IMG/VR virus record: IMGVR_UViG_3300047095_000623
Location: 1 to 59,990 of that record
From: a virus
Lineage: Duplodnaviria > Caudoviricetes
Direction: 5' to 3' (one strand)
DNA length: 59,990 nucleotides
Shown in pieces: positions 8,801 through 55,707 of the stretch (position 1 is the stretch's first letter; each line of letters opens with the position of its first letter). The position numbers were made by a program, and so were the translations under genes. The notes under the pieces were generated by a model. That model was given only the letters and a program-made list of their open reading frames with translations. It was not told where the DNA came from and ran no database searches.

Positions 8801-9084
8801 CATTTTAAATTGAATACTAGATCGTATAATCGTTCCGCTTCCTCCTGTGTATATTCCGCTCCTATTTTTTGCGCTCCATTGATACATCGGGCGACGGTCT
8901 GCCACCATTCTTCAGTGGTGTCCGCATTGATCATTCTGGAGTACGTACGTTTATATACAATGTATCCAAGACCGTTAAAACCCCAATTGGGTTGTCGGTA
9001 CATGTATTTGGTTAGGAATGGTTCGGTTAGTAAAGTGCTGAAACAGTATGTTTCGTTGTATGTTGGTAAATCTTGTGTTCCCAT
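5899..9084 (-). CDS. nrdJ: Class II (B12-dependent) ribonucleotide reductase with intein; start uncertain (9084 or 9123)
   Basis: YKRTYSR, GRMLWQLG, LMLGGGVGF, VVAGNVRR/SAQ, NPCGEI, TTVKPSGT, C-terminal ECAGGACPLR. Confidence 0.95.
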   Translation of the reverse strand: MGTQDLPTYNETYCFSTLLTEPFLTKYMYRQPNWGFNGLGYIVYKRTYSRMINADTTEEWWQTVARCINGAQKIGAEYTQEEAERLYDLVFNLKCTFGGRMLWQLGTSTVDRFGLASLLACWWVSMRELEDFCFLFEHLMLGGGVGFSVKREDIHELPKIKKGVTITHILSKDADFIVPDSRQGWVELLRKVLNSYFVTGKSFTYSTILVRGLGEPIKGFGGTSSGPQILIEGLESIFTVFRGREGKKLRSVDVLDINNLIGSIVVAGNVRRCLPEYTLVHTDEGLQRIKNIKVGDRVLTVDGYKKVLNNFYQGKQNTIFIKTQDGSFECTPNHKMAVLKNLGGEYEWVEAQNLKAGDRLGTSRNICTGIQTYLPEWKYEKSKHSTTCQDIIVPELDSDMAWFLGIFQADGYTYPNYDNNGFNACVSLVFNENEYSIAERAKQQLERFGLVNVVLKHRKNENSWMVSCQSKQIAWYLDKNLKQANVPLTVPEYILRANHKIRLAFVCGVMDGDGAANNRPVHVVTTVYENFAKEIQALLYSCGIESRLNEGSENTPSRLGWQKLYHVVLITNHSKNQVINCEMLEKDIRISSKTNYSNGYPSSWLVHGKRELGAYSNEQVTIDRYERYSGITPTLCPVEVLEVQMGNSQVETYDIEVEDVHEFFANGYLTHNSAQIAVGDPDDYLFIKAKNWADGKIPNWRDKSNNTINADEYSHISDDVWNNGYVLDKKTGKAKGEAYGFMNLPLCRSVGRLGEEKPDNCDGINPCGEITLADGEPCNLCEIYLNNINDEEELFDCARLLYKTQKAVWTLPALYEKTDKIGKKNRRIGLGVTGVCQSIPKLEWLDECYKKLVQLDKDWSQQRGWPTSIKLTTVKPSGTASLLAGATPGGHPAYSRFYIRRIRIGSSDPLVQVCKDAGYKMEYVVRFDGSEDYSTFAVEFPCQVGDDAILSADMTAIQQLELVNKLQTVWSDNSVSVTIYYSTDELEGIQEWMKENYETKCKTLSFLLHSNHGFKQAPYEEIDEKTYLSLIKRLKPVRLHLNISSEVLDGLECAGGACPLR
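7069..8268 (-). mobile_element. 400-aa intein with LAGLIDADG homing endonuclease
   Basis: Starts CLPEYTLVHT, ends FFANGYLTHN followed by Ser; TPNHK block B; WFLGIFQADG and FVCGVMDGDG motifs. Confidence 0.95.
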
Positions 9085-9238
9085 AATTAAAGTTGCGTGC
9101 TGACGATAAAACGATAGTAGCATGTCCGCGCCTAAAGTCAACCTTGTTGCTGGATTATTTACCCGGAAATTGGTCAGGTGGACCACTCTTGGAAAGTTTC
9201 ATCGCCATGATAAATACCGTATCTCGTTAAATATGTAC

Positions 9239-12709: not shown

Positions 12710-12784
12710 AGCATAAAGGTGGTCGTAGGACCACACCCGTCGCTAAAAAGGCGGGAGAGACTAGTGCAGCTCTAGTTTATGCTA
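12710..12784 (+). ncRNA. tRNA-like cloverleaf RNA of undetermined identity
   Basis: AGCATAA/TTATGCT acceptor, 6-bp D stem GTGGTC/GACCAC, CCCGTC-GCTAAAAA-GGCGGG, ACTAG-TGCAGCT-CTAGT. Confidence 0.7.
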
Positions 12785-12790
12785 CTTAAA

Positions 12791-12862
12791 TGCAGGGAGA
12801 GTGCTGGTTCTCCGAGCGTCTCATAAGCGACTCTGACGAGGGTTCGATTCCCTCCTCTGCAA
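12791..12862 (+). tRNA. tRNA-Met(CAT), atypical
   Basis: TGCAGGG/CTCTGCA acceptor; CTCATAA loop; bulged anticodon stem; GAGGG-TTCGATT-CCCTC. Confidence 0.75.
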
Positions 12863-12932
12863 CTTATCCCCCGCCGCCTCTTAACAATGCGTAATTGCGG
12901 GGGTGTGTCTTTACAACAGGTTAAATAACATA

Positions 12933-15672: not shown

Positions 15673-15743
15673 GGGCAGGTCGTCTAGTGATAAGACAACG
15701 ATCTCTAAAATCGTTTACGCGGGTTTAATCCCCGCCCTGCCCA
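15673..15743 (+). tRNA. amber suppressor tRNA (CTA)
   Basis: GGGCAGG/CCTGCCC acceptor; ACGAT-CTCTAAA-ATCGT; anticodon CTA at 15705-15707. Confidence 0.88.
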
Positions 15744-15754
15744 CCTTTTAACAA

Positions 15755-15914: not shown

Positions 15915-16517
15915 ATGACAAAGAAAGAATATGAATTAAGATTACAGACAAAAGAATGGAAAGAATTCTCCAATTCTTGTAAACTTAAAATGGATAATCG
16001 TTGTCAAATGTGCGGGCATCAAACGTTTGACAATAGCAAGTTACACCTTCACCATATGAGCTACTCGTTAGTTGATGAGGAGAATGAATACAAGGTTTTG
16101 ATTTTGTTGTGTGAAGATTGTCATGAGACTTTTCATAAAAACTCTAAAGCCGCTACTAAATCTTGTGATAGAAACTACCTTCAATTACACTTAGCAAAAG
16201 TTTTAATGAGAGCTGGTAGGGACGTATCTTATTTTCTAGATTCTGGAAGTTCTTTGAATTTGAAATGGGAACTCTTTCCGTTAAAACTTAAAGGGGTCCA
16301 AAAGCCATACGAAGAAAAAAAGTTAGAGGCTAGTAACTGGACCCCCGAAAAAGTTAAAAGAGATTTGGTGTTTATCAATAGGATATTGGACGGAGAGACC
16401 ATTCCCGATGAAATTATTATAGAGACTCTAGGAATTCCCGACTATCCAAGACCTAAAAAATGGAGAAAAAAACTTTTAAAACATCTTACGAACTATTCTT
16501 ACAAATACAGATTATAA
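15915..16517 (+). CDS. HNH endonuclease
   Basis: LQTKEWK..RCQMCG..LHLHHMSY..LCEDCH. Confidence 0.8.
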   Translation: MTKKEYELRLQTKEWKEFSNSCKLKMDNRCQMCGHQTFDNSKLHLHHMSYSLVDEENEYKVLILLCEDCHETFHKNSKAATKSCDRNYLQLHLAKVLMRAGRDVSYFLDSGSSLNLKWELFPLKLKGVQKPYEEKKLEASNWTPEKVKRDLVFINRILDGETIPDEIIIETLGIPDYPRPKKWRKKLLKHLTNYSYKYRL

Positions 16518-24962: not shown

Positions 24963-25358
24963 ATGGTTAAAAAAACACTATTAGCGATGGGATGGATCTG
25001 CCTTCAGGCGGGTGGGATGGCCGAGTTAGCCGCCGCAGAGCATGGGAAAGCGTCTTGGTATTCTGTCAGGGACAACCACGGGACTGTCACCGCCAGCGGG
25101 CAGAAGCTCAACGACAACCACCTTACGGCGGCACACAAAACCCTCCCCATGGGAACCCAAGTCCGAGTGACTAATTTGAATAATAACAAGAGTATCGTGT
25201 GTGTTATCACGGATCGCGGCCCCGCTATAAAGGATAGGGTACTGGATGTTACTAAGAGAGCTGCGGAAATGTTAGGGTTTAGAGACGCTGGGTTGACAAG
25301 AGTTAAAATCGAAGTTATCGGCAAAGTAAGCTTAAACCGGAGGGTACCTCTCAAATAA
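24963..25358 (+). CDS. rlpA: RlpA-like lytic transglycosylase (DPBB)
   Basis: GKASWY, TASG, TAAHKTLPMGT.VRVTN, ITDRGP, LDVT. Confidence 0.92.
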   Translation: MVKKTLLAMGWICLQAGGMAELAAAEHGKASWYSVRDNHGTVTASGQKLNDNHLTAAHKTLPMGTQVRVTNLNNNKSIVCVITDRGPAIKDRVLDVTKRAAEMLGFRDAGLTRVKIEVIGKVSLNRRVPLK

Positions 25359-26294
25359 ACGCTCCCTCTTTATTTGTACAAATCGGGTTAAAGCAGATTC
25401 CATATTTTTAGAAACGTGTTTTTGTTTATTACAAAAAAACCAGACGTTGCCTTCGTCGTCTGTTCTTCCGACGCTAGACCGATTAAAAGAGCAAGAAGTT
25501 ATTACCCTCTCGATGAGGCTCTTTTTTCTATTTAAAAATATACTACATCCTTCATATAATAATTTATATAATTTATAACAGTTGTCTCTTCCTGATAAAA
25601 CCACTGAACCATATCCGTTTTTGCGTTCTTTATAAGGGGCGAATATAATACCGTACTTAGTCTCCATAAACTCTTTGATTTGGTTGCACATTGCCTTATT
25701 AGAGGTAAAACTCATAACAATTGGAAGAGTTTTTTTAATACCTCCGTCTCCATCGTAAAATCCTCTAATAAAATGGCGGAATAGTTCCTCTGGAACCTTA
25801 TCAAAGGATGGTAAAGATATTGTAGACGATTTATTAGGGGTGCATCCTAATTTAACCAGATCCTTTCCTAGTGTAATATTACCGAGCTGGAACGACGCTA
25901 TGTTGCTCCAGTTTTTAGTACGCCTTATAATAATTTTGACTAGATCTTCCTTACATAAAATGTAACTTATCTTGCGTAAAATTTCGCCATCCTGCTCTTG
26001 CAACCGTATCCTTAATTTATAAGAGCAAATATGATTTCTATCCTTACTCCAATACGGCGATAATGACCCATCTGAATACATCAGCCCTAGAATATAAGCC
26101 TTCTCTTCGGTGTCGATAGTTTTGAAAAAGTTCACATCTATGTTTGGATTTGTTTTAAACCCTCTTCGCTTATATAGGATAATCCCATTATCTCTTAGAA
26201 AAGTATATATTCTATTTTTAGAAACCTTATATTCGTTTGACAACTCGGCCACCGTTTTCCCGGTATTATATTCTTGAAGTATAGTATTATACAT
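25332..26294 (-). CDS. free-standing LAGLIDADG homing endonuclease with N-terminal HTH
   Basis: FFKTIDTEEKAYILGLMYSDG; FRHFIRGFYDGDG; TAAATA-N5-ATG. Confidence 0.9.
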   Translation of the reverse strand: MYNTILQEYNTGKTVAELSNEYKVSKNRIYTFLRDNGIILYKRRGFKTNPNIDVNFFKTIDTEEKAYILGLMYSDGSLSPYWSKDRNHICSYKLRIRLQEQDGEILRKISYILCKEDLVKIIIRRTKNWSNIASFQLGNITLGKDLVKLGCTPNKSSTISLPSFDKVPEELFRHFIRGFYDGDGGIKKTLPIVMSFTSNKAMCNQIKEFMETKYGIIFAPYKERKNGYGSVVLSGRDNCYKLYKLLYEGCSIFLNRKKSLIERVITSCSFNRSSVGRTDDEGNVWFFCNKQKHVSKNMESALTRFVQIKRERLFERYPPV

Positions 26295-27932: not shown

Positions 27933-29429
27933 TTATTTAACCCCAATTTGTTTAGTTTTACGCATAAGCTGATCAGCACTTGGCTCGCGGCCAGCTAGTA
28001 ACTCTTCCGCCACATAGTCTTGTAACTTCGGAAGGATCGTCCCGATTCGCGGCTTATCAGTAGCCAGCACAGGGAACCATGTCATTAGGATATTACCATT
28101 GATATGCTGTGATATCCGCTTCTTAAGCTCGTCTCCACCACCGGGAATAACATTAAGCTTATCTTCAGCGCGTTTGATTTTGGCTTCAAAACTTTCCGCC
28201 CCGAACGCCCCTTTAAAGAACTGCGGACCACGGGACGCTTCGTCACAATACCCCACCGCCTTCACGGTTTCCCAAGACGGATCGTGTATGATCCGTCTCA
28301 GGGTTTTAATGTTTAGTTCGTCCAGCTTATGTATAAGCATGTGTCTCGACACCGCCATTAGAATGTTGCGCTTGTCGATCTGAGTCAGATGGGCAAACCG
28401 CAGTCTCTTAAAGACGTTTTCCACAATAGGAACTCCCGCATCCTCATGCCCGTAATAAGTGGAGTGTCCGTTTTTGCTTCCGCGTGTAACAGCTTTCCCG
28501 AAGTCGTGGAACATTACCGCAAGATTGATCACCGGATCGTTATATGGAGACACCTTCAAACATTCATGGATATGCCCGAGAACGGTAGACCCTCCTTCAG
28601 GGTGACACTTTGGGTCGTGAGTATACCCTGTCATTTGGATAAACTCCGGTAGAATATCATCCAATATTTCCGCGTCCTGTAATTTCTGTAGAAAATTGGA
28701 TAAAGTCTTTCCACTCTTGGCGGCTTTATATAATTCCTGTGAAATGCTTTCTTGTGAGATCAGCTCCGGGTTCCGTAGAAGATGTTTCAGATCTATGGCG
28801 GCTTGAAGAGTTTCCGGTTCTATCTCAAAGTCCATCTTAGCCGCAAATCGGAACACCCGAAGTATCCGGGTCGCGTCTTCCTTGAATCTTTCCTTAGCGT
28901 TTCCAACCGCCCTCACTATCTTATTCTGAAGATCTTTCAGCCCTCCCTGATAGTCCACAATCTTACCAGTATAATCCAGCCCGAAACTGTTGATGGTAAT
29001 ATCCCGTCTCTTCGTATCCGTTTCAAAGCTGTCAACTTCTGTGGAGACGTTTTGCTGTCTCCCCATTTGTGTCTGAGAGTCTTCCCTAAACTTCGCCAGA
29101 TCGTACGCGTAGTTGTTGTGTAGAATAGTGTAGACTGGTTGGGAATCATCCTTGCTGATATTCCGCAACTCCCAGTACTGGGACAAGCCTGTAAATGGAA
29201 TATTGGTAGCCATGTCAACATCGTCGATCTTGTTGCCCATCAGTAAATCCCGGGGAACTCCCCCCACGATGTAAATCTCCCCGGATGGAAACTTGCCATG
29301 TATCTCTTTCATGAGATCCAACGCCACTCGTAACTCCTCTGAAGAGGACACCGCATGTTCCCACTTGGCGGGAAAATCCTCCAAACTGTAGTTTATGCTT
29401 TCTGTGAAAAAGTTGATAAATGACTTCAT
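27933..29429 (-). CDS. cca: tRNA nucleotidyltransferase (CCA-adding, class II) with HD domain
   Basis: YIVGGVPRD, DDVDMAT, RRDITINS, EDATRILRVFRF, HPEG..H, MFHDFGK. Confidence 0.92.
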   Translation of the reverse strand: MKSFINFFTESINYSLEDFPAKWEHAVSSSEELRVALDLMKEIHGKFPSGEIYIVGGVPRDLLMGNKIDDVDMATNIPFTGLSQYWELRNISKDDSQPVYTILHNNYAYDLAKFREDSQTQMGRQQNVSTEVDSFETDTKRRDITINSFGLDYTGKIVDYQGGLKDLQNKIVRAVGNAKERFKEDATRILRVFRFAAKMDFEIEPETLQAAIDLKHLLRNPELISQESISQELYKAAKSGKTLSNFLQKLQDAEILDDILPEFIQMTGYTHDPKCHPEGGSTVLGHIHECLKVSPYNDPVINLAVMFHDFGKAVTRGSKNGHSTYYGHEDAGVPIVENVFKRLRFAHLTQIDKRNILMAVSRHMLIHKLDELNIKTLRRIIHDPSWETVKAVGYCDEASRGPQFFKGAFGAESFEAKIKRAEDKLNVIPGGGDELKKRISQHINGNILMTWFPVLATDKPRIGTILPKLQDYVAEELLAGREPSADQLMRKTKQIGVK

Positions 29430-43098: not shown

Positions 43099-43111
43099 GT
43101 GGGTATTATAG

Positions 43112-43501
43112 TTATTGTTTAGTAATAGGAGTGAAAAGGTCACGGAAACCCGCACCAAAGATCTCATTGATATCTTCCCGTGGATCTGTGAAGCGATCAC
43201 CGCTAGACAGGTTGATCAGAGCGAAAATTTCCTTCCCGACCCTACACACCATGTACTCGGTACCATTATACATATACCGATCTCCCGGTGCAATGGGAGT
43301 GTTATAGGTGTATGAAACGTTTACCAAGGTAAGGCTTTCACGGCATTCATGAAATATATGCGCCCGTGTGGTATATCTATGGAGGTCGCCAGTACCAATA
43401 TTACATAACGCGCTCTCTCCATTAAATAGTGGTGTCACCACAAACAAAGCGCCATGCTCATTGACAAAATGATCACCCCTCATTGGTAAGTCCTTAATCA
43501 T
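43112..43501 (-). CDS. GDCFRH-related two-repeat protein
   Basis: PMRGDHF.. / APGDRY..LINLSSG..F.PI. Confidence 0.6.
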   Translation of the reverse strand: MIKDLPMRGDHFVNEHGALFVVTPLFNGESALCNIGTGDLHRYTTRAHIFHECRESLTLVNVSYTYNTPIAPGDRYMYNGTEYMVCRVGKEIFALINLSSGDRFTDPREDINEIFGAGFRDLFTPITKQ

Positions 43502-43527
43502 ATATGTATTATAGTGTAGTGTTTATC

Positions 43528-43917
43528 TCAGCACTCCAGCTTCGTTCGCGCCTCGACAATCTCTTCGATCTTTTTCCATGTAATTGTTTGGCATCCAACC
43601 GTGACGTTCTTCTTGGTAACTACCGCAGAATATTCTCCAACTCCTTGAACTGTAATAGCCATGGACCCATTCAACTCGCTAAGGATTTCCTCAATATCTT
43701 CTGGAAACTGGTAGTCATGATCCTTATCCCTATAACTTCCAGTTAGTTCCATGTCGGTCTTAACGTTGACAATGGGAAACCGTTCTTGAGGATACCGTGC
43801 TTGAACATCTTCCGTAGTATGCTCCTCCCCATGCCACTTATACCCATACTTCATCAGAAGGGATAAGAGACGCATTCTAGACTTGGCGGATTTCGTATCG
43901 ATTGAAAAATCTCTCAT
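43528..43917 (-). CDS. VGCQ-module family protein
   Basis: YSAVV..VTVGCQTITWKKIEE. Confidence 0.8.
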   Translation of the reverse strand: MRDFSIDTKSAKSRMRLLSLLMKYGYKWHGEEHTTEDVQARYPQERFPIVNVKTDMELTGSYRDKDHDYQFPEDIEEILSELNGSMAITVQGVGEYSAVVTKKNVTVGCQTITWKKIEEIVEARTKLEC

Positions 43918-43928
43918 ATGTTTGTAGT

Positions 43929-44330
43929 TTACTGGTTTTCCTTCTTCGCTCGGGCGGCTGCGATCTCATCAAACTTCTCCCATGAGATTGTCTGACAACC
44001 CACCATCAAATGATCCTTATACACTCTCGCGCTATAATCACCAACCCCTTCGATTACAATCGGAGCCGATTGATCAGACAGATCCGCAAGAATAATATAT
44101 GAATCTTGTGGAAACAGATGGGTGACATGCCTATAGTCGGAAGGATTTCCGGATATCTCCATGTCCTCGTCCAGCATAACAACAGGATAGTTATCCCATG
44201 AATACTTTTCATCGACATAGGATACCGTATAATCAGCGTCATTGTGCCACTTCGCACCCATCTTCATCAGAATGGATAGAAGCACAGTCCGGTGTTTTGC
44301 GGCATCTGTATGAATTGCGAAGCGTCTCAT
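43929..44330 (-). CDS. VGCQ-module family protein
   Basis: YSARV..MVGCQTISWEKFDE. Confidence 0.8.
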   Translation of the reverse strand: MRRFAIHTDAAKHRTVLLSILMKMGAKWHNDADYTVSYVDEKYSWDNYPVVMLDEDMEISGNPSDYRHVTHLFPQDSYIILADLSDQSAPIVIEGVGDYSARVYKDHLMVGCQTISWEKFDEIAAARAKKENQ

Positions 44331-44362
44331 ATGTTTATATTGTAGTGTTGATAGTGAAAGTG

Positions 44363-44737
44363 TTACAGCTCCCGTTGTGCGCTCGCGATATTATAAACTT
44401 CCTCAAGCTTATCAAACGGAATAGTTTGGCAACCAACCTTGGTGGTACCCATATGATCGATAACCGCATCATAGTTATCGGTCAACTTAACCGTGACAGG
44501 TTGCTTGATAACCTTGCGAATAACGAAGATAGGGAAGTTCCAGCCGAGATAAACCCCCCCGTCGCTGATTTCTTGAACCTCATGTTCCTTCCCCACATAA
44601 CCATCCATGTTTTGGTTCCATGAATCAGACCAACCCATTTCCCCCCTAGTCGCGGCATGAGTGACATATACCTTATCGCCCTCTTTAAGGCCCATAAGTT
44701 CGATCATCACTGTCTGTAGTTCTGCGTATGTTTTCAT
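44363..44737 (-). CDS. VGCQ-module family protein
   Basis: KVGCQTIPFDKLEE. Confidence 0.8.
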   Translation of the reverse strand: MKTYAELQTVMIELMGLKEGDKVYVTHAATRGEMGWSDSWNQNMDGYVGKEHEVQEISDGGVYLGWNFPIFVIRKVIKQPVTVKLTDNYDAVIDHMGTTKVGCQTIPFDKLEEVYNIASAQREL

Positions 44738-44768
44738 ATGTTTGTTGTGTTTGTATTAAAGTTATATA

Positions 44769-45155
44769 TTATGCCCGTTGTTTAAGAGCGGTGTTATAGA
44801 TCTCTTCCAGTTTGTCGAAGGGGATGATTTCATCGGACACCTTCACGGTTCCATTTGAATCAATCAGCACGTCATAATCCTTCGACAGATTGAGCGTAAC
44901 ATCAGGAACGCGGGATTCCGTCTTGGTAAGAACAAAGATAGGGAAACAATACCAATCGGCGTCCTTTAGAAATAGACCATTATCACGAATTGAATAAACC
45001 TCATAATTGTTACCAACAAAGGCGTCCATTTCCTTGACCCATGAGTTCCAGCCCAACTCATGAGTGGTTGCGCTCCTATTGATTGTGACCCGATCCCCCA
45101 CCTTGAGGGTCATAAGTTCCACCATCGTTGCCTGTAGTTCTCTGTATGTTTTCAT
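44769..45155 (-). CDS. VGCQ-module family protein (degenerate VSDE)
   Basis: Paralog of 44363; KVSDEIIPFDKLEE. Confidence 0.75.
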   Translation of the reverse strand: MKTYRELQATMVELMTLKVGDRVTINRSATTHELGWNSWVKEMDAFVGNNYEVYSIRDNGLFLKDADWYCFPIFVLTKTESRVPDVTLNLSKDYDVLIDSNGTVKVSDEIIPFDKLEEIYNTALKQRA

Positions 45156-45158
45156 TGT

Positions 45159-45515
45159 TTATTCTTCGTTGTATTTGTTGTAAATTGTTTCGGAGATTTC
45201 ATCCAGTTCGTCTTCAAATCTTCCAGCCGCATAATCACATATGGCGACCCCCGGTTCATTCCCAAGACAGAAAAAGATCGATGAGACATACCCATCCTTG
45301 GAAATATTGATCGATGCGACATGCCCATCCTTGGAAATATCTAAAGTCGCATCATCCACTCCAAGAATGTTTTCCAATGCTGTCTGGAATCCTAGATCGG
45401 AATCTTTGGTGTTGATAGGTTCCTCATCAACTTGTGTAAGGGTAAACCCTCGCTCGACCAATAGACTGAGAACGTCTTTCACTTCATTATAATAAGGATT
45501 ATCTTCCAGTTTCAT
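45159..45515 (-). CDS. hypothetical protein
   Basis: Internal ISKDG duplication. Confidence 0.6.
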   Translation of the reverse strand: MKLEDNPYYNEVKDVLSLLVERGFTLTQVDEEPINTKDSDLGFQTALENILGVDDATLDISKDGHVASINISKDGYVSSIFFCLGNEPGVAICDYAAGRFEDELDEISETIYNKYNEE

Positions 45516-45538
45516 GTGTGTAATGTGTTGAGGGTTAG

Positions 45539-45829
45539 TTACTTAACTTCGGTCCACTTACCGTTCCAAGGGTTGCCGTTGAGATATGGAGTACCTTTGT
45601 CCGTATGAATCTGTAGTCCGCGAAGACCATTAAGACGCTCGCGGGTTATCTTGGTGTTATGTCCTGCCAAGGTAATAGATAGATTATCCTTGGAATCCAA
45701 TCGGGCGATGGGGTGTCCATGTAAAGCCAGCAACGCGACCTTTCCCAATACGACAACCGCCGTATTGTTATCACACATCGGTTCACGATTTAGAAACGAC
45801 TCTTGAATCTTTTTGGTTCCCTTTCTCAT
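45539..45829 (-). CDS. hypothetical phage protein
   Basis: LHGHPIA..TRERLNGL. Confidence 0.6.
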   Translation of the reverse strand: MRKGTKKIQESFLNREPMCDNNTAVVVLGKVALLALHGHPIARLDSKDNLSITLAGHNTKITRERLNGLRGLQIHTDKGTPYLNGNPWNGKWTEVK

Positions 45830-45836
45830 GTGGTTA

Positions 45837-46106
45837 TTATATTCTAGTGTTTAACAGTACAGGATGAACAAACCCTGTATGTTTGGTTATCCAATTATAG
45901 AACGGATTGGGCTTGCTTCGACCTATAAGTTGAGGTTGACCCTTTGATATGTCAAACCTCCAGTGGTAAAACCTCATGGTATCCGTGGGCTTGAAAGCGG
46001 GCGAGGTTACTGTAAGTACCTCATTATCATTGGATACCACATAAAACCTATATGGTATCCAATGAAAGAGAATCCAGTCACCAACTTGGAAGTCCCTGCT
46101 GGACAT
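45837..46106 (-). CDS. hypothetical protein
   Basis: ORF. Confidence 0.55.
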   Translation of the reverse strand: MSSRDFQVGDWILFHWIPYRFYVVSNDNEVLTVTSPAFKPTDTMRFYHWRFDISKGQPQLIGRSKPNPFYNWITKHTGFVHPVLLNTRI

Positions 46107-46528
46107 TATCGGAAATCCTTGGTAATCTTAACCAGTTCGTCAAGCTTGTCCCATGTAATATGTTGGCAACCAACGTCGATCCCATCTTTAGAAACTTTCG
46201 CACTGTACTCATCAGTCAGTTGCATGATCACAGGAGACTTAGGGAATCCACCCGCCAAAAGATCCACGATCTCCGGGGCATTCTTCGGCCATTCGTACTC
46301 CATCATACCGCGTGAATTCCATGAATGACCACAGAAGTTGAGACGTTTATCGACACGAAGTCTTTCTTCCAATAGGATATATTCCCACCCGGAATACTTC
46401 TTATTAAGAGAGTTCACGTCCGAATCCCTCGTACCATCGTACCCGCTCTGGTATGCGTATCCTGCTTGTACCAAGATCGACAGTAAGAATGGTTGACTAG
46501 TCTTATCACATTTAATTTTAACGTCCAT
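46106..46528 (-). CDS. VGCQ-module family protein
   Basis: IDVGCQHITWDKLDE. Confidence 0.8.
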   Translation of the reverse strand: MDVKIKCDKTSQPFLLSILVQAGYAYQSGYDGTRDSDVNSLNKKYSGWEYILLEERLRVDKRLNFCGHSWNSRGMMEYEWPKNAPEIVDLLAGGFPKSPVIMQLTDEYSAKVSKDGIDVGCQHITWDKLDELVKITKDFR

Positions 46529-46560
46529 ATATTTATTTGTTTGTTTATTGAGATTTATAC

Positions 46561-46950
46561 TTAATGGTTGACTCCGACGAACTTTACAAGTTCTTTGAAC
46601 GTGTCATAAGGGATTAGCTGACAACCCACCTTGATACCGTCCTTAGTTAGTTCGGCGTTATAGTCCTTGGTAAGCTTGAATATAGGACAAGGAGAAAGTT
46701 CTTCGATGATCTTGATACAGTCAAGCGGCCAACTGTAATCCGTTTCTACCGTAGGCGCATAAGAAGTAATACTAAGAGTTTCGGTATTAAACCCTAGAAT
46801 GGGCCAATCACAAGTATTCACTTCATCGATGAAATGTTCCCATTTCGTATATTCCCAACTCCTCCGGTCATACACGTACCCATACTTGACCAACAGTTCA
46901 AACAATGGCCTGCGATTCGATTCTTGGGGAATATTGATTTTTACGTTCAT
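46561..46950 (-). CDS. VGCQ-module family protein
   Basis: IKVGCQLIPYDTFKE. Confidence 0.8.
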   Translation of the reverse strand: MNVKINIPQESNRRPLFELLVKYGYVYDRRSWEYTKWEHFIDEVNTCDWPILGFNTETLSITSYAPTVETDYSWPLDCIKIIEELSPCPIFKLTKDYNAELTKDGIKVGCQLIPYDTFKELVKFVGVNH

Positions 46951-46961
46951 ATGTTTAGAGG

Positions 46962-47363
46962 TTATTGTTTACGGACTTGTTTGGAAGCTTCCACCAACTC
47001 GTCGAACTTCTCCCATGTGATAGTCTGACAGCCGACTTGAATGTTCTTGGCGGAAACGGTGGCGGTATATTCCCCCACGTTGTCCACCACGATAACCTTG
47101 GTGGTAAGATCCTCGATGATCTGAGCGGCATCTTGCGGCCAAACGTAGTCTTCCGAACTTCCAGTCCCGCAAATAGATCCTGTAGGTTCTACGGCGATTC
47201 GTGGATACATATTAAAATCATATATCCTATTCACCAGAGCCGGATCTTGTGTGGTATCGTGTGAGTGTTTATGCCAGATGTATCCATATTGGAAAAGAAT
47301 CGCCAGCAAAGCCGTACGATCTTCCGATGTTTTGGTTAGTATTACCTTTCGTTCTTGTATCAT
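46962..47363 (-). CDS. VGCQ-module family protein
   Basis: IQVGCQTITWEKFDE. Confidence 0.8.
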   Translation of the reverse strand: MIQERKVILTKTSEDRTALLAILFQYGYIWHKHSHDTTQDPALVNRIYDFNMYPRIAVEPTGSICGTGSSEDYVWPQDAAQIIEDLTTKVIVVDNVGEYTATVSAKNIQVGCQTITWEKFDELVEASKQVRKQ

Positions 47364-47385
47364 ATTATTGTTTAGTTGTTGTAAA

Positions 47386-47820
47386 TTACAGATTACGAAT
47401 TTCCTTCGCGATCTCTGAAAGTTCGTCGAACTTCTCCCATGTGATATCCTGACAGCCAACAGTGATGCCGTCGATGCTAACCACTGCGGAATAATCATCC
47501 GTCAATTGCATCGTGACTGGTTGTGACTTCTTCAATTCCTTGCTGAGATAATCCAGTACTTCCGTTGCTTGGAAAGGCCATGCAAAAGTGACCACGCTAT
47601 CACCCTTTCGAGGATGCCAAGAATCATTACAGAAGTTAAGTTGCTTAGGATCTCTAGGATCTCCAGGATCTCTAGGTTCGATAAGAACGTATGCCCAATT
47701 GTTATACATACCAAGTTGCTCCACGGTTTTATGGTACTCTCGGGAGAAACCAGCGTTGACCAATACGGCCAGCAAAGAATTACGATGTTCTAGAGAACTT
47801 CCAATTTTAATGTTTGTCAT
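47386..47820 (-). CDS. VGCQ-module family protein
   Basis: ITVGCQDITWEKFDE. Confidence 0.8.
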   Translation of the reverse strand: MTNIKIGSSLEHRNSLLAVLVNAGFSREYHKTVEQLGMYNNWAYVLIEPRDPGDPRDPKQLNFCNDSWHPRKGDSVVTFAWPFQATEVLDYLSKELKKSQPVTMQLTDDYSAVVSIDGITVGCQDITWEKFDELSEIAKEIRNL

Positions 47821-47832
47821 GTTGTGTGATTA

Positions 47833-48231
47833 TTACTTGCGAACTTGCTTGGACCCTTTAACCAGCTCGTCGAACTTCTCCCATGAGACAAGTTGACAAC
47901 CAATCTGTAAACCTTCCCTACCTAAGACGGCAGAGTATCCCGCGACATCTTCCACTGTAACATTAGGATTCATTACATCATCCAATACGCTTGCGGCGTC
48001 TTCCGGCCAATCATACGCGGAGAGTTTATAAATAGTTCCTGAAACCCTTCCATCTGGAGCAATCCCGATAGTTGGATAGCTGCCTTGCGAATACTCTTTT
48101 TCTACCCTCTCGGGATCAGTAGAATGATCACTCATTCCTTTATGCCAAATGAATCCATGTTGAAAAAGCAGGGCCAGAAGTCCGTTGCGATCCGTTGCGC
48201 TCTTCGTATTTACGTATATTTTCTTAATCAT
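47833..48231 (-). CDS. VGCQ-module family protein
   Basis: LQIGCQLVSWEKFDE. Confidence 0.8.
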   Translation of the reverse strand: MIKKIYVNTKSATDRNGLLALLFQHGFIWHKGMSDHSTDPERVEKEYSQGSYPTIGIAPDGRVSGTIYKLSAYDWPEDAASVLDDVMNPNVTVEDVAGYSAVLGREGLQIGCQLVSWEKFDELVKGSKQVRK

Positions 48232-48254
48232 ATATTAGTTGTGTTGTGTGTTTA

Positions 48255-48674
48255 TTACTTGCGAACTTGCTTCACCAGTTCCGTGAGTTCGTCGAACTTC
48301 TCCCATGTGATATCCTGACAGCCAACAGTGATGCCCGTGTGGGTCACAATAGCTTCATAATCATCGGTCAATGTCATGGTTTTCGCGGAAGTGATAATTT
48401 TTAGGATTTTAGCCGCGCTTTCCGGCCACCTATAAGAATCCGTATAAGAGTTATCCCGAATCCATGCGTCTGAACAGAAGTTGAGATCTTCCGGGGCGGA
48501 TACATCGACAAGAACATTGGGATAGTCGGCCTTAATGTTCTTGTCAACCGCGCCTACGGTGTCCAGTTTTCCACAACTAAAGGAATTATAGCTATATCCC
48601 ATATGGAACAGGATAGCAAGAATAGTTCCCCGATTTTCAATGCCGCTGCATTTAATGTGTATTTGCTTACTCAT
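48255..48674 (-). CDS. VGCQ-module family protein
   Basis: ITVGCQDITWEKFDE. Confidence 0.8.
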   Translation of the reverse strand: MSKQIHIKCSGIENRGTILAILFHMGYSYNSFSCGKLDTVGAVDKNIKADYPNVLVDVSAPEDLNFCSDAWIRDNSYTDSYRWPESAAKILKIITSAKTMTLTDDYEAIVTHTGITVGCQDITWEKFDELTELVKQVRK

Positions 48675-48709
48675 GTGTGTATTGTATTCTAGTGTTTAAT
48701 GATGTTGGT

Positions 48710-48788
48710 TGGTGAGGGCGACAGGAGTCGAACCTGCATTGAATCCGTTACGGTACTACGCCTTAGAAGGACGTTCCGATACACCCCC
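48710..48788 (-). tRNA. D-armless tRNA-Arg(TCT)-like RNA with long variable region
   Basis: GGGGGTG/CGCCCTC-ACCA; ACGTC-CTTCTAA-GGCGT; GCAGG-TTCGACT-CCTGT; only TATCGGA in place of D arm. Confidence 0.8.
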
Positions 48789-49985: not shown

Positions 49986-50100
49986 AATGTTATTATAACC
50001 TAGTGTTTATTAGATATCTTGATATTATCACACATTTAGTTACTTCTAAGTTAGAAGCATCCAAAACAGACTACGTGGAAGTAGTGTGATTTTCTGTTTC

Positions 50101-50208
50101 TAGGGGCGGGGGGAGTTGAACCCCCTATCCTCGGTTTATCTTGGAATGTCTCAAATAAATGTGACACTCCTAGAGAGACCGACGCATTAACCGTTCTGCT
50201 ACACCCCT
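50101..50208 (-). tRNA. tRNA (probably CAT) interrupted by a 35-nt hairpin insert (50140-50174)
   Basis: AGGGGTG/CGCCCCT-A; TCGGT-CTC[insert]ATAA-ACCGA; GGGGG-TTCAACT-CCCCC. Confidence 0.8.
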
Positions 50209-50216
50209 CTTTAAAG

Positions 50217-50333
50217 TAGCTCCAGTGACTTCGACATCACAATCCTTTCGGCGGCAGATTTTTGACAAAAGATAGGAGATTAGTACTATCTTCTGATAAG
50301 AAGTCTGCTGGGTATACATTCCCCCATGGAGCC
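50217..50333 (-). tRNA. tRNA-Leu (probably TAA) interrupted by a 38-nt hairpin insert (50263-50300)
   Basis: GGCTCCA/TGGAGCT-A; GCAGA-CTT[insert]AAAA-TCTGC; long variable arm. Confidence 0.75.
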
Positions 50334-50342
50334 ATTGAACCA

Positions 50343-50762
50343 TTATTTATCTTCCACATCAACCAACAGATTATTATAAGCATCTTCTTTCATATCCTCA
50401 TAATAACCAGAGTTGGTAATGAAATCCCCGCGAGACTTATAAGAACATCCTCCAAGGGTAGCACTACCCTTAAACTCTCCCCAATTTGCAGTAACAGTTA
50501 CCATACACCACGCCCAAGGATTACTCCCCAAATCTTCGAGAATATCTCTAACCATTTCCGCATCGGCTTCATCATCCCCTGACGCAAAATATCCTGACGG
50601 ATGATCCCATTCTTCTGCAATGGTAACTTCAATATACACTTCATCGATAAGCGGCATACGATTATGTTCAAGCGTCAAATCTGCTTTCATATCATCCAAT
50701 AGCGTATTGATTGCCATACGATAATCCTCGATAATTTCATAAGTACGTTTCAGGTGGTTCAT
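50343..50762 (-). CDS. hypothetical phage protein
   Basis: WAWC.V.V....GS..LGGCSY. Confidence 0.65.
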   Translation of the reverse strand: MNHLKRTYEIIEDYRMAINTLLDDMKADLTLEHNRMPLIDEVYIEVTIAEEWDHPSGYFASGDDEADAEMVRDILEDLGSNPWAWCMVTVTANWGEFKGSATLGGCSYKSRGDFITNSGYYEDMKEDAYNNLLVDVEDK

Positions 50763-51052
50763 AATATTATTTCTTCTACGAGTTTCTTAAAAGACATTCC
50801 TAGTTGTTCAGTCACATAAGTACACAGTGAATGAAGTTTGAATTGTTCACCGAAGAGCTTGCCCCATTTACGGGACTCTTCTTTCATATATTCCTCCAAC
50901 CCTGTTTTATGGTCAGGATGGTTCTTGATAAAGACTTTCTCCAATGCCTTATACGAAGTCCAATCCACATCAGGATTCTTCAAAGGGTTGTGTTGTAGCC
51001 TTGAGAGCTTTCCAAGGTACAGTCGGGCGGGTAAAGTGTCAAGTAATTTCAT
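50759..51052 (-). CDS. hypothetical protein
   Basis: ORF. Confidence 0.55.
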   Translation of the reverse strand: MKLLDTLPARLYLGKLSRLQHNPLKNPDVDWTSYKALEKVFIKNHPDHKTGLEEYMKEESRKWGKLFGEQFKLHSLCTYVTEQLGMSFKKLVEEIIL

Positions 51053-55491: not shown

Positions 55492-55707
55492 GTCGTTATT
55501 GTATGGTAGTGTTTAACTTACATTTCGGATCGAGGTACCAGTAGTTCCACCGTGTACTCAATATCTTCCGGTTGACAATCGTACTCCTGATCCCATGTAA
55601 CCTTAAAACTAACCGTGTTACGGTTTATAGATTTATTGAGTTTGGTTACGATATGGTCGTTTAGAATCTCTTTAATCTCTTCTTGTGTCAGTGTTAGTTT
55701 CATATGG

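What the first reader, a model, noticed from the sequence alone, without database searches (positions are those of the whole stretch)
50101..50333. Two adjacent tRNAs with short hairpin inserts inside the anticodon
Seen: TCGGT-CTC[TCTAGGAGTGTCACATTTATTTGAGACATTCCAAG]ATAA-ACCGA and GCAGA-CTT[CTTATCAGAAGATAGTACTAATCTCCTATCTTTTGTCA]AAAA-TCTGC. The inserts (35 and 38 nt) are unrelated in sequence but both fold into hairpins. Removing both after position 34 restores canonical loops CTCATAA and CTTAAAA (the latter has a Leu-type variable arm); other registers would give GAT/CTT or TCA. They are far too short for group I/II ribozymes and not at the archaeal/eukaryal 37/38 site. Inference: protein-dependent tRNA splicing in a bacteriophage, or nuclease-proof/decoy tRNAs activated on cleavage.
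Basis: partly seen in the sequence, partly recalled or inferred. Interest (0 to 1): 0.9.

Follow-up and report, generated by a model that had tools for sequence, protein, structure and literature searches.

The report
Hairpin mini-introns splitting phage tRNA anticodons
Two neighbouring tRNA genes of an uncultured 200-kb-class lake phage are each split inside the anticodon by a small conserved hairpin that fits no known bacterial way of removing tRNA introns, so either an undescribed splicing route exists or these are unusual non-decoding tRNA-like RNAs.

Summary
tRNA(CAU) lies at 50208-50101 (Rfam 52.3 bits; ARAGORN places a 35-nt intron between nt 34 and 35). tRNA(UAA) lies at 50333-50217 with a 38-nt insert at the same site.

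Related IMG/VR phages carry the same thing: 8 interrupted genes in 5 lineages, with inserts of 35-44 nt always after nt 34. Intronless orthologues show uninterrupted CUCAUAA and CUUAAAA loops, which fixes the junctions.

The hairpins and the cloverleaf stems are both kept by compensatory changes. In the CAU type 102 of 102 cells pair and 15 of 34 pairs change on both sides. CAU-type introns are more conserved than their exons, and one UAA-tRNA intron belongs to the CAU-type family.

The inserts are too small for group I and show no bulge-helix-bulge. No EndA or RtcB was found in six related records. An Rnl2-superfamily RNA ligase occurs in five related records (partial match in a sixth) and a small AAA_33 kinase in all five searched, in genomes with and without introns alike.

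Best reading (about 0.6): genuine protein-spliced mini-introns, with the endonuclease unknown. No RNA data were available. The nearest precedent in print is the unexplained 'enigmatic' tRNA introns of Lak megaphages. This scan has already noted other hairpin-split phage tRNAs on other DNA.

The parts
50301..50333 (-). tRNA(UAA) 5' exon, 33 nt: acceptor 5' strand, D arm, anticodon stem GCAGA, loop C32 U33 U34
   Evidence: Sequence. Cloverleaf by RNAfold. GCAGACTT abuts AAAATCTGC directly in 52 of 66 matches in other viral contigs.
50263..50300 (-). 38-nt hairpin intron of tRNA(UAA): 10-bp stem, 10-nt loop
   Evidence: Folds. In the same register as the 38-nt insert of G003, by my reading of the two folds, 4 stem pairs are changed on both sides. 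Boundaries come from the intronless homologues.
50217..50262 (-). tRNA(UAA) 3' exon, 46 nt: A35-A38, anticodon stem UCUGC, 13-nt variable arm, atypical T arm with a 6-nt loop, acceptor 3' strand, discriminator A. No CCA is encoded.
50175..50208 (-). tRNA(CAU) 5' exon, 34 nt, ending C32 U33 C34
   Evidence: Rfam 52.3 bits. ARAGORN -i.
50140..50174 (-). 35-nt hairpin intron of tRNA(CAU). i1-i3 pair with i34, i35 and A35, followed by an A.A mismatch, an 8-bp stem, and a 12-nt loop closed by 2 more pairs.
   Evidence: Four intron pairs change on both sides among 3 phages. The intron is 69-77% identical among them, against 62-70% for the exons.
50101..50139 (-). tRNA(CAU) 3' exon, 39 nt: A35 U36 A37 A38, anticodon stem, 5-nt variable loop, T arm, acceptor 3' strand, discriminator A. 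No CCA is encoded.
50010..50100 (-). Conserved non-coding block just downstream of the tRNA pair: a long imperfect hairpin followed by U's, then a short palindrome and a TGTGATAAT-type -10-like box. Probably the end of the tRNA transcription unit and the next promoter.
   Evidence: Near-identical block follows the tRNA(UAA) gene of G003 and appears in contigs of a further run (X8). The simple promoter/terminator scan did not call it. The function is inferred.
48713..48788 (-). Third member of the small minus-strand tRNA group: a tRNA(UCU)-like gene without a D arm and with a long variable arm
   Evidence: Rfam 32.8 bits. Relatives have an ordinary tRNA-Arg(tct) near the UAA/CAU pair.
27933..29429 (-). 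Phage CCA-adding enzyme (tRNA nucleotidyltransferase). Relevant because neither interrupted gene encodes CCA.
   Evidence: PHROG 2244 at 2.5e-56. Pfam PolyA_pol head domain at 4.6e-23.

Best explanation
Both genes are functional tRNA genes: a tRNA with anticodon UAA (Leu-type, reads UUA/UUG) and a tRNA with anticodon CAU (Met, or Ile2 if C34 is modified). Each is interrupted between nt 34 and 35 by a member of one family of 35-44-nt hairpin mini-introns. This family is confined, as far as I could see, to a clade of roughly 200-kb T4-like freshwater phages.

The precursor extends the anticodon stem into a rod. Intron nt 1 pairs with A35 in 7 of 8 genes. Intron nt 2 pairs with the last intron nt in 7 of 8. 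An internal loop or mismatch follows, then an 8-13-bp stem. Both splice sites therefore flank a single base pair, and the 3' site lies inside a helix.

I propose that a structure-specific protein endonuclease, from phage or host and unidentified, cuts both junctions. The exon halves are held together by the tRNA body and are then joined, most plausibly by the clade's Rnl2-superfamily RNA ligase (with its small AAA_33 kinase if the ends need healing) or by a host ligase.

Shown: gene anatomy, exact junctions, conservation, covariation, and failure of the group I and BHB tests.
Inferred: removal at the RNA level, dependence on protein, and the identity of the enzymes.
For: (1) Exact junctions. 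Intronless orthologues have uninterrupted loops. CUCAUAA occurs in the G002 CAU tRNA, whose acceptor AGGGAUG is close to the window's AGGGGUG. CUUAAAA occurs in 52 of 66 matches to the window's 19-mer, where GCAGACTT directly abuts it; 3 of 66 carry a 38-nt insert and 11 have other 5' sequences.

(2) Recurrence. There are 8 interrupted genes: W x2, G001 x2, G014 x2, G003 x1, G015 x1. All have the insert after nt 34, with lengths 35, 35, 35, 35, 38, 38, 39 and 44 nt.

(3) Selection on both parts. In the CAU type, 102 of 102 cells pair. Fifteen of 34 pairs change on both sides, reached by 0 of 500 shuffles. Slid controls give 36-53% paired. Four of the changed pairs lie inside the intron.

(4) Invariant loop halves. 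They do not vary, while exons are only 58-84% identical.

(5) Need for the tRNA. In the complete genome G003 the interrupted gene is the only Leu tRNA found. UUA makes up 36-40% of Leu codons in G003 and G001.

(6) No ribozyme. Rfam at gathering threshold finds only tRNAs in the window, in all of G003, and in the first 80 kb of G001. A review puts the group I catalytic core at roughly 100 nt (PMC4033280, passages).

(7) Candidate joining enzymes. An RNA ligase (PF09414 plus the PHA02142 OB domain) sits next to a PTH2 peptidyl-tRNA hydrolase in G001. It has homologues in G002, G003, G015 and G016, with a partial match in G008. An AAA_33 kinase of about 140 aa is present in 5 of 5 genomes searched.
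Against: - No RNA evidence exists. No RNA run holds the locus.
- No endonuclease candidate emerged.
- The ligase and kinase also occur in intron-free relatives G002 and G016, so they do not track the introns.
- No EndA over the cut-off in 5 related records, and no RtcB in 6.
- No protein-dependent tRNA splicing is known in bacteria.
- The window's UAA gene has a degenerate elbow (no GG in the D loop, 6-nt T loop) and escapes all tRNA finders.
- CAU-type introns are more conserved than their exons. This could mean the hairpin, not the tRNA, is the functional product.
- Only 3 sequences support the CAU-type counts and 5 the UAA-type observations.
Confidence: 0.6

Rival explanations
1. The RNAs are never spliced. 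They are tRNA-shaped RNAs with a rod in place of the anticodon loop. They would act as decoys or sponges for host tRNA-directed nucleases or modification enzymes, or as carriers of a functional hairpin.
For: No splicing machinery was found. CAU-type introns are 69-77% identical against 62-70% for the exons, with a conserved apical loop RCAUUWANUUGA. The window's UAA gene has lost canonical elbow features.
Against: The 3 + 4 loop nucleotides either side of the insert are invariant in all 8 genes and rebuild exactly the loops of intronless orthologues. A decoy for an anticodon nuclease would need an intact anticodon loop. The interrupted gene is the only Leu tRNA of the complete genome G003, which uses UUA for 36% of Leu.
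Confidence: 0.2
2. A small palindromic DNA element has inserted into the anticodon-coding DNA and the genes are inactivated, decaying pseudogenes.
For: Presence among close relatives is sporadic: intron-bearing W, G001, G003 and G014 are sister to intron-free G002 and G016 in the capsid tree. The same intron family occurs in two different tRNA species of G014 (and 65.8 bits to the CAU model). The window's UAA copy has a degenerate T and D loop.
Against: Compensatory changes maintain acceptor, D, anticodon and T stems in interrupted genes, with 11 of the 15 double changes lying outside the intron. There are no other copies. The two degenerate intron patterns matched nothing beyond the known sites: the stricter one found only G001 in viral contigs, and the looser one found nothing in metagenome contigs. 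Each of the 11 records has at most two interrupted genes.
Confidence: 0.1
3. The inserts are removed by RNA catalysis. They would be either minimal self-cleaving elements or substrates of a trans-acting ribozyme encoded elsewhere, for example a group I-derived excision ribozyme or RNase P.
For: The host tRNA species (Leu-UAA and a CAU tRNA) are the same ones that carry group I introns in cyanobacteria (PMC4033280, passages). The CAU-type hairpin from i1 to the apical loop spans 12 stacked positions, the length of an acceptor/T-arm stack; that reading is my own.
Against: At 35-44 nt with unrelated stems and, in the UAA type, unrelated loops, there is no room for a core. No ribozyme family was found by Rfam in the window or in complete G003. 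RNase P could explain at most the 5' cut.
Confidence: 0.05

Closest known systems
'Enigmatic' tRNA introns of Lak megaphages (Devoto et al. 2019, PMC6784885; passages read)
   Same: Short non-group-I inserts in the anticodon region of phage tRNA genes. They are conserved among related phages, absent from some relatives, and have no known means of removal. The authors state that phage tRNA introns had not been reported before.
   Different: A different phage group: >540-kb gut phages of Prevotella, against roughly 200-kb T4-like lake phages. At least one Lak intron contains a tRNA-like element, whereas these are plain hairpins placed between nt 34 and 35. The Lak intron sequences are in Supplementary Table 6, which I could not open, so sequence or positional likeness is untested.
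[quoted passage not shown]
   Same: The same tRNA species are hit (UAA and CAU anticodons). The insert lies inside the anticodon loop and its distribution is patchy. I recall, but did not verify, that the cyanobacterial tRNA-Leu intron also sits between U34 and A35.
   Different: Group I introns need about 10 helices and a core of roughly 100 nt (PMC4033280). These inserts are 35-44 nt single hairpins with no Rfam group I match.
Archaeal and eukaryal protein-spliced tRNA introns (BHB motif, EndA/TSEN, RtcB or Trl1)
   Same: They are short. They depend on pre-tRNA structure rather than on a ribozyme. The exons are held together by the tRNA body.
   Different: There is no bulge-helix-bulge. The 3' site lies inside a helix and the 5' site at a loop-helix junction. 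The position is 34/35, not 37/38. No EndA or RtcB was found in the related phage records searched.
Phage T4 anticodon-loop repair (host PrrC cut, T4 Pnkp healing, Rnl1 sealing)
   Same: It occurs in a T4-like phage lineage. A broken anticodon loop is rejoined by phage RNA-repair enzymes. The clade encodes an RNA ligase and a small P-loop kinase.
   Different: T4 repairs a single cut in a host tRNA and removes no intervening sequence. Rnl1 (PF09511) is absent here. The ligase is of the Rnl2 superfamily, with only a weak match to T4 Rnl2 (E 5.7e-4). Details of the T4 pathway are recalled, not read here.
Bacterial rRNA intervening sequences removed by RNase III without re-ligation
   Same: A hairpin insert in a structural RNA of a bacterial system, excised by a host double-strand RNase.
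   Different: Without ligation a tRNA cut in its anticodon loop cannot decode. The stagger implied here is a one-nucleotide 5' overhang, not the 2-nt 3' overhang of RNase III. The RNase III geometry is recalled; the stagger is my reading.

Membership tests
tRNA (Rfam RF00005) | Cloverleaf with conserved D and T loop elements, scoring above 29 bits | tested here: met
   For the CAU gene: 52.3 bits with the insert skipped. ARAGORN -i calls tRNA-Met(cat).
tRNA (Rfam RF00005) | The same test, applied to the UAA gene at 50217-50333 | tested here: inconclusive
   No Rfam or ARAGORN call. RNAfold gives a cloverleaf. Orthologues in G001 (Rfam 50.4 bits) and G003 (ARAGORN) are called. The D loop lacks GG and the T loop has 6 nt.
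Group I intron | Catalytic core of paired elements P3-P9, roughly 100 nt or more | tested here: not met
   The inserts are 35-44 nt single hairpins. There is no RF00028 or any other ribozyme match.
Group I intron | Self-splicing with a guanosine cofactor in vitro | not testable with these tools
   Needs transcription and incubation of the precursor.
BHB intron (EndA-dependent) | Two 3-nt bulges separated by a 4-bp helix, each containing a splice site | tested here: not met
   Minimum-free-energy folds of all 8 precursors show a 3x3 or 1x1 internal loop, then 2-5 pairs that include i1:A35. The 3' site lies inside that helix. By inspection, nt 29-32 cannot pair with the intron nucleotides that precede the 3' site.
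BHB intron (EndA-dependent) | A splicing endonuclease (PF01974) and RtcB (PF01139) available | tested here: not met
   EndA: 0 of 5 related records reach the cut-off; one 13-bit match at E 0.009 in G014. RtcB: 0 of 6 related records. Neither is in the window. The host genome is unknown, so host enzymes remain untested.
Lak-type 'enigmatic' phage tRNA introns | A short non-ribozyme insert in a phage tRNA anticodon loop, conserved among relatives and absent from some | tested here: met
   8 genes in 5 lineages, with intron-free orthologues in G002, G016 and L229.
Lak-type 'enigmatic' phage tRNA introns | Sequence or structural relatedness to the Lak introns | not tested
Miniature palindromic DNA repeats (REP/MITE-like) | Many dispersed copies per genome | tested here: not met
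   The stricter intron pattern matched only G001 in viral contigs. The looser one gave 0 hits in metagenome contigs. The R1 model finds only the tRNA sites in 1.8 Mb of 11 related records.
T4-type RNA repair (Pnkp + Rnl1) | Rnl1-family ligase (PF09511) | tested here: not met
   No match in the window or in G001.
T4-type RNA repair (Pnkp + Rnl1) | An ATP-dependent RNA ligase together with a 5' kinase in the same genome | tested here: inconclusive
   A PF09414 ligase is present in G001, G002, G003, G015 and G016, with a partial match in G008. An AAA_33 ORF of about 140 aa is present in 5 of 5 genomes, at 22-27 bits, around the 27-bit cut-off. Neither lies in the 29%-complete window. No phosphatase domain was sought.

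The most novel reading that the evidence does not exclude
Bacteriophages have a third kind of tRNA splicing, independent of group I ribozymes and of the EndA/BHB system. In it, mobile 35-44-nt hairpin mini-introns sit between the wobble base and nt 35. They are cut out at two sites flanking a single base pair by an undescribed structure-specific endonuclease. The halves are then sealed by phage RNA-repair enzymes. The intron may keep the phage's rare-codon tRNAs (UUA, AUA/AUG) inert or nuclease-proof until the phage's own enzymes are made, or it may gate modification of the wobble base.
Probability: 0.4. Interest if true: 0.92.

Novelty: new variant of a known kind. Interest (0 to 1): 0.78.

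Why it matters
Textbook knowledge says bacterial tRNA introns are self-splicing ribozymes and that protein-catalysed tRNA splicing belongs to archaea and eukaryotes (PMC4033280). Here a bacterial virus keeps 35-44-nt hairpins in the anticodon of tRNAs it evidently needs, under clear selection, with no ribozyme and no BHB.

If they are spliced, an unknown endonuclease-and-ligase route exists in bacteria or their phages. It would be testable at once, because the junctions, the pairing rule (i1:A35 and i2:last intron nt) and intron-free controls are now defined. It would also explain the 'enigmatic' Lak introns and similar cases this scan has met.

If they are not spliced, they are a new class of conserved tRNA-shaped phage RNA. 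Either way, standard tRNA finders miss them. ARAGORN's default run missed both genes and Rfam missed one, so phage tRNA repertoires are under-counted.

Tried and rejected
- Exact 25-mer of the CAU 3' half, and the neighbouring 139-aa ORF, in viral contigs: no relatives.
- A mis-specified intron pattern, one N too many: 0 hits, a wasted scan. The corrected pattern found nothing in metagenome contigs.
- Gapped UAA pattern: 0 hits in metagenome contigs and 0 in genome contigs. No cellular genome with this insert was found at that stringency. This does not exclude hosts whose exons differ.
- RF00005 over 12 related records: 79 matches. The only one over 100 nt was an unrelated odd tRNA-like in G005. 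The tool's first look misses interrupted genes.
- Relaxed home-made scan: 196 hits against 175 on reversed controls, so it was useless. The stricter version recovered 3 true genes.
- R1 model on 50 further related fragments: 20 matches, all 71-92 nt, none interrupted.
- Phyletic profile of 489 G001 ORFs: 3 ORFs are present in at least 3 of 4 intron-bearing records and in 0 of 6 intron-free records. One is a short frame overlapping the tRNA cluster, one is a multi-pass membrane protein (A5), and one is an 89-aa protein with no Pfam or PHROG family. Its AlphaFold model had pLDDT 58, too poor to search, and the Atlas gave only unnamed viral clusters at 0.88 or below. This co-occurrence may simply reflect kinship.
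- Pfam and PHROG searches of ORFs flanking the tRNAs: nothing informative.
- Sequencing runs: no RNA holder is listed. DNA contigs show no joined, intron-free form in the 4 runs laid.
- Simple promoter/terminator scan: no convincing site.
- Paquin et al. 1997 (PMC179611) is not held. PMC4476775 and PMC3984707 do not state the group I insertion position.
- Literature searches returned no description of hairpin introns at 34/35 in phage or bacterial tRNAs other than Devoto 2019.

Full report
**What the window is.**
The 59,990-base window is a whole IMG/VR virus record, linear, estimated 29% complete. It encodes a T4-type major head protein, about 33% identical to gp23 of cyanomyoviruses. It also encodes a prohead-protease-like ClpP, a baseplate spike domain, ribonucleotide reductase, a UvrD-like helicase and a CCA-adding enzyme. 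A plus-strand cluster of 16 ARAGORN tRNAs at 12.6-21.2 kb includes a CUA (amber-reading) tRNA. Related records are 177-212 kb. DNA runs holding the locus are lake or freshwater metagenomes.

**Checking the observation.**
Both features lie on the minus strand.

- The downstream one, 50208->50101, is a strong tRNA. Rfam gives 52.3 bits, E 7.4e-10, with 39 nt skipped in the anticodon loop.
- The upstream one, 50333->50217, folds into a cloverleaf plus hairpin. Rfam, ARAGORN and my own model all miss it. Its D loop lacks GG and its T loop has six nucleotides.
- Fold energies are better than shuffles, at z -5.0 and -2.9. For the insert stretches folded alone, z is -3.3 and -3.0.
- Contigs of an independent study's run cover 50082-50900 without a single difference and show no joined form. 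The inserts are therefore in the DNA of natural populations.

**Relatives.**
- A helicase search found one relative, G001 (196,721 bases, 96% complete, helicase 73% identical).
- G001 has the same pair in the same order: a UAA tRNA with a 39-nt insert (ARAGORN; Rfam 50.4 bits), followed 11 nt later by a CUC[35 nt]AUAA tRNA (Rfam 39 bits).
- A capsid alignment found 568 related stretches, of which 80 were kept. I fetched ten large records in full and 14 loci around a conserved 111-aa protein.
- The census over 11 records (1.8 Mb) and the extra loci gives eight interrupted genes. The CAU type, always 35 nt, occurs in W, G001 and G014. The UAA type occurs in W (38 nt), G003 (38; identical in two further contigs), G001 (39), G014 (35) and G015 (44).
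- My model R1 found 7 matches of 100 nt or more among 52. Six are these genes and one is the antisense of the window's CAU gene.
- Fifty further related fragments gave 20 matches, all 71-92 nt.
- The introns occur only in a small tRNA group (UCU, CAU or UAU, UAA) that lies apart from the main cluster.

**Where exactly the inserts sit.**
- Intron-free orthologues settle the register. The window's 19-mer spanning the 3' loop half, anticodon stem and variable arm occurs 66 times in 65 viral contigs. In 52 of those, GCAGACTT directly precedes it, giving the loop CTTAAAA. Three carry the G003 38-nt insert and 11 have other 5' sequences.
- G002, a complete close relative, has an uninterrupted UAA tRNA. 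It also has a CAU tRNA with loop CUCAUAA whose acceptor stem differs from the window's at one position.
- Only removal after nt 34 produces these loops.
- ARAGORN's own calls for G014 (Phe-aaa, Lys-ctt) and G015 (Leu-caa) show how easily software picks another register.
- For G015, a CAA product cannot be excluded.

**Selection.**
- In the alignment of the three CAU-type precursors every one of 102 cells forms a standard pair. Fifteen of 34 pairs show changes on both sides, reached by 0 of 500 shuffles. Sliding the partners gives 36-53% pairing.
- Four of the doubly changed pairs are inside the intron and 11 are in the tRNA stems. Three sequences is a small sample.
- The two 38-nt UAA introns (W, G003) fold in the same register. 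By my reading of the two folds, four stem pairs are changed on both sides.
- In 7 of 8 genes intron nt 2 pairs with the last intron nt (C-G or U-A; the exception is G015). In 7 of 8 genes intron nt 1, a U, pairs with A35 (the exception is the window's UAA gene, which has a C).
- CAU-type introns are 69-77% identical to each other, more than their exons at 62-70%. They share the apical loop RCAUUWANUUGA.
- The UAA intron of G014 is significantly like the CAU-type introns of W (z 4.1, 0 of 500 shuffles) and G001 (z 3.2, 2 of 500). It scores 65.8 bits against the CAU model, above every ordinary tRNA. One intron family therefore occupies the same site in two tRNA species.
- The other UAA introns are only weakly alike, at z about 1-2.7.

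**What it is not.**
- Group I: a review puts the core at roughly 100 nt and about ten helices (PMC4033280, passages). These are single hairpins. Rfam finds no ribozyme in the window, in complete G003, or in the first 80 kb of G001. The fast filters on those large inputs also missed the interrupted tRNAs, so this negative is not absolute.
- BHB: the folds show, after the 5-bp anticodon stem, a small internal loop, then 2-5 pairs including i1:A35, then a mismatch or loop, then the main stem. The 5' site is at a loop-helix junction and the 3' site is inside a helix. There are no 3-nt bulges around a 4-bp helix.
- Enzymes: there is no EndA over the cut-off, no RtcB and no Rnl1 in the window or in the related records searched.
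- Dispersed repeat: the intron patterns matched nothing beyond the tRNA sites.

**Candidate enzymes.**
- G001 encodes a 463-aa protein with a PHA02142 OB domain and a PF09414 RNA-ligase domain. It matches T4 Rnl2 weakly (E 5.7e-4) and sits next to a PTH2 peptidyl-tRNA hydrolase.
- Homologues are in G002, G003, G015 and G016, with a partial match in G008.
- An AAA_33 P-loop ORF of about 140 aa lies 3-8 kb from the ligase gene in the five genomes searched.
- Both genes also occur in intron-free G002 and G016. They are plausible sealing and healing enzymes, not markers of the introns.
- No endonuclease candidate emerged from a phyletic profile.

**Is the tRNA needed?**
G003 is complete, with direct terminal repeats, and the interrupted gene is its only Leu tRNA. 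In G001 and G003, UUA is 36-40% of Leu codons, AUA 33% of Ile and AGA 52-56% of Arg. This matches the small tRNA group. In the window UUA is 18%.

**Evolution.**
In the capsid tree the four records W, G001, G003 and G014, all intron-bearing, are sister to intron-free G002 and G016. In the helicase tree G015, also intron-bearing, falls outside them, on a long branch. Together with the shared intron family in two tRNA species, this calls for either several losses or transfer between genes. How the intron would move is unknown.

**Reading.**
The most economical account is that these are real introns removed after transcription by proteins (0.6). The steps that are shown are the anatomy, the junctions, the conservation and the exclusion of known classes. 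Splicing itself and every enzyme are inferred.

The main rival is a non-spliced tRNA-shaped RNA whose conserved hairpin is the point (0.2). It is favoured by the intron being better conserved than the exons and by the decayed elbow of the window's UAA copy. It is disfavoured by the invariant loop halves. Pseudogenes created by a DNA insertion (0.1) and RNA catalysis (0.05) fit less well.

**Literature.**
Six full-text searches returned only Devoto et al. 2019 on phage tRNA introns. That paper calls the Lak megaphage introns enigmatic and says none had been reported in phages before (passages). Its intron table is a supplement I could not open.

Notes from this scan record other hairpin-split phage tRNAs on other DNA. 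These include a 35-nt hairpin at 37/38 in a crAss-like tRNA-Phe and tRNA-shaped Lak introns. I took the Devoto reference from those notes and checked it myself.

Two things are recalled rather than read here: the position of cyanobacterial group I introns within the anticodon, and the details of T4 RNA repair.

Noticed in passing
window 48713-48788 (-): A tRNA(UCU)-like gene (Rfam 32.8 bits) with almost no D arm and a long variable arm. A 61-base stretch is 85% identical to an unannotated intergenic stretch of the cultured Limnohabitans phage DC31. Relatives have a normal tRNA-Arg(tct) in this group.
   Followed up: partly
window 12765-12863 (+): A 99-nt tRNA-like gene that ARAGORN calls 'tRNA-???' with a 4-base anticodon (gctg). 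Its long extra region contains a CUCAUAA stretch. In relatives this place, after tRNA-Glu, holds three tRNA(cat) genes.
   Followed up: no
window 15673-15745 (+); also G001, G002, G014, G015, G016: A tRNA with anticodon CUA (reads UAG) is conserved across the clade. This hints at UAG read-through or recoding in some genes. ORF maps were not compared under code 15.
   Followed up: no
window 50010-50100: A non-coding block of about 90 nt downstream of the tRNA pair is almost identical in G003, where proteins are only 50-80% identical. It holds a long imperfect hairpin followed by U's, and a TGTGATAAT-type box.
   Followed up: partly
window about 43100-48700 (-): A tandem run of some ten paralogous ORFs of about 120-145 aa. 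The three translated share a C-terminal GCQ.(I/V).WEKFDEL motif. Most have no counterpart in G001.
   Followed up: no
G002 55502-55593 (-); L218, L226, L228, L229: Intron-free CAU tRNAs of 90-94 nt with a long, class II-like variable arm. Conversely, there are class I (75-77 nt) tRNAs with a UAA anticodon in G001, G014, G004 and G006. Both are unusual for bacterial-type tRNAs.
   Followed up: partly
G005 77141-77253 (+): A 113-nt tRNA-like gene (Rfam 40.8 bits) with encoded CCA. It has a hairpin insert between the D arm and the anticodon arm, and an oversized anticodon loop.
   Followed up: partly
window 5899-9186 (-): The ribonucleotide reductase ORF is 1095 aa. Residues about 294-575 hit unrelated PHROGs (DnaC-like loader and unknowns). 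This suggests an intein or an inserted domain.
   Followed up: no
window 15915-16517 (+) and 25332-26294 (-): An HNH endonuclease ORF lies inside the tRNA cluster, and there is a free-standing LAGLIDADG-type endonuclease ORF. Both are possible homing endonucleases.
   Followed up: no
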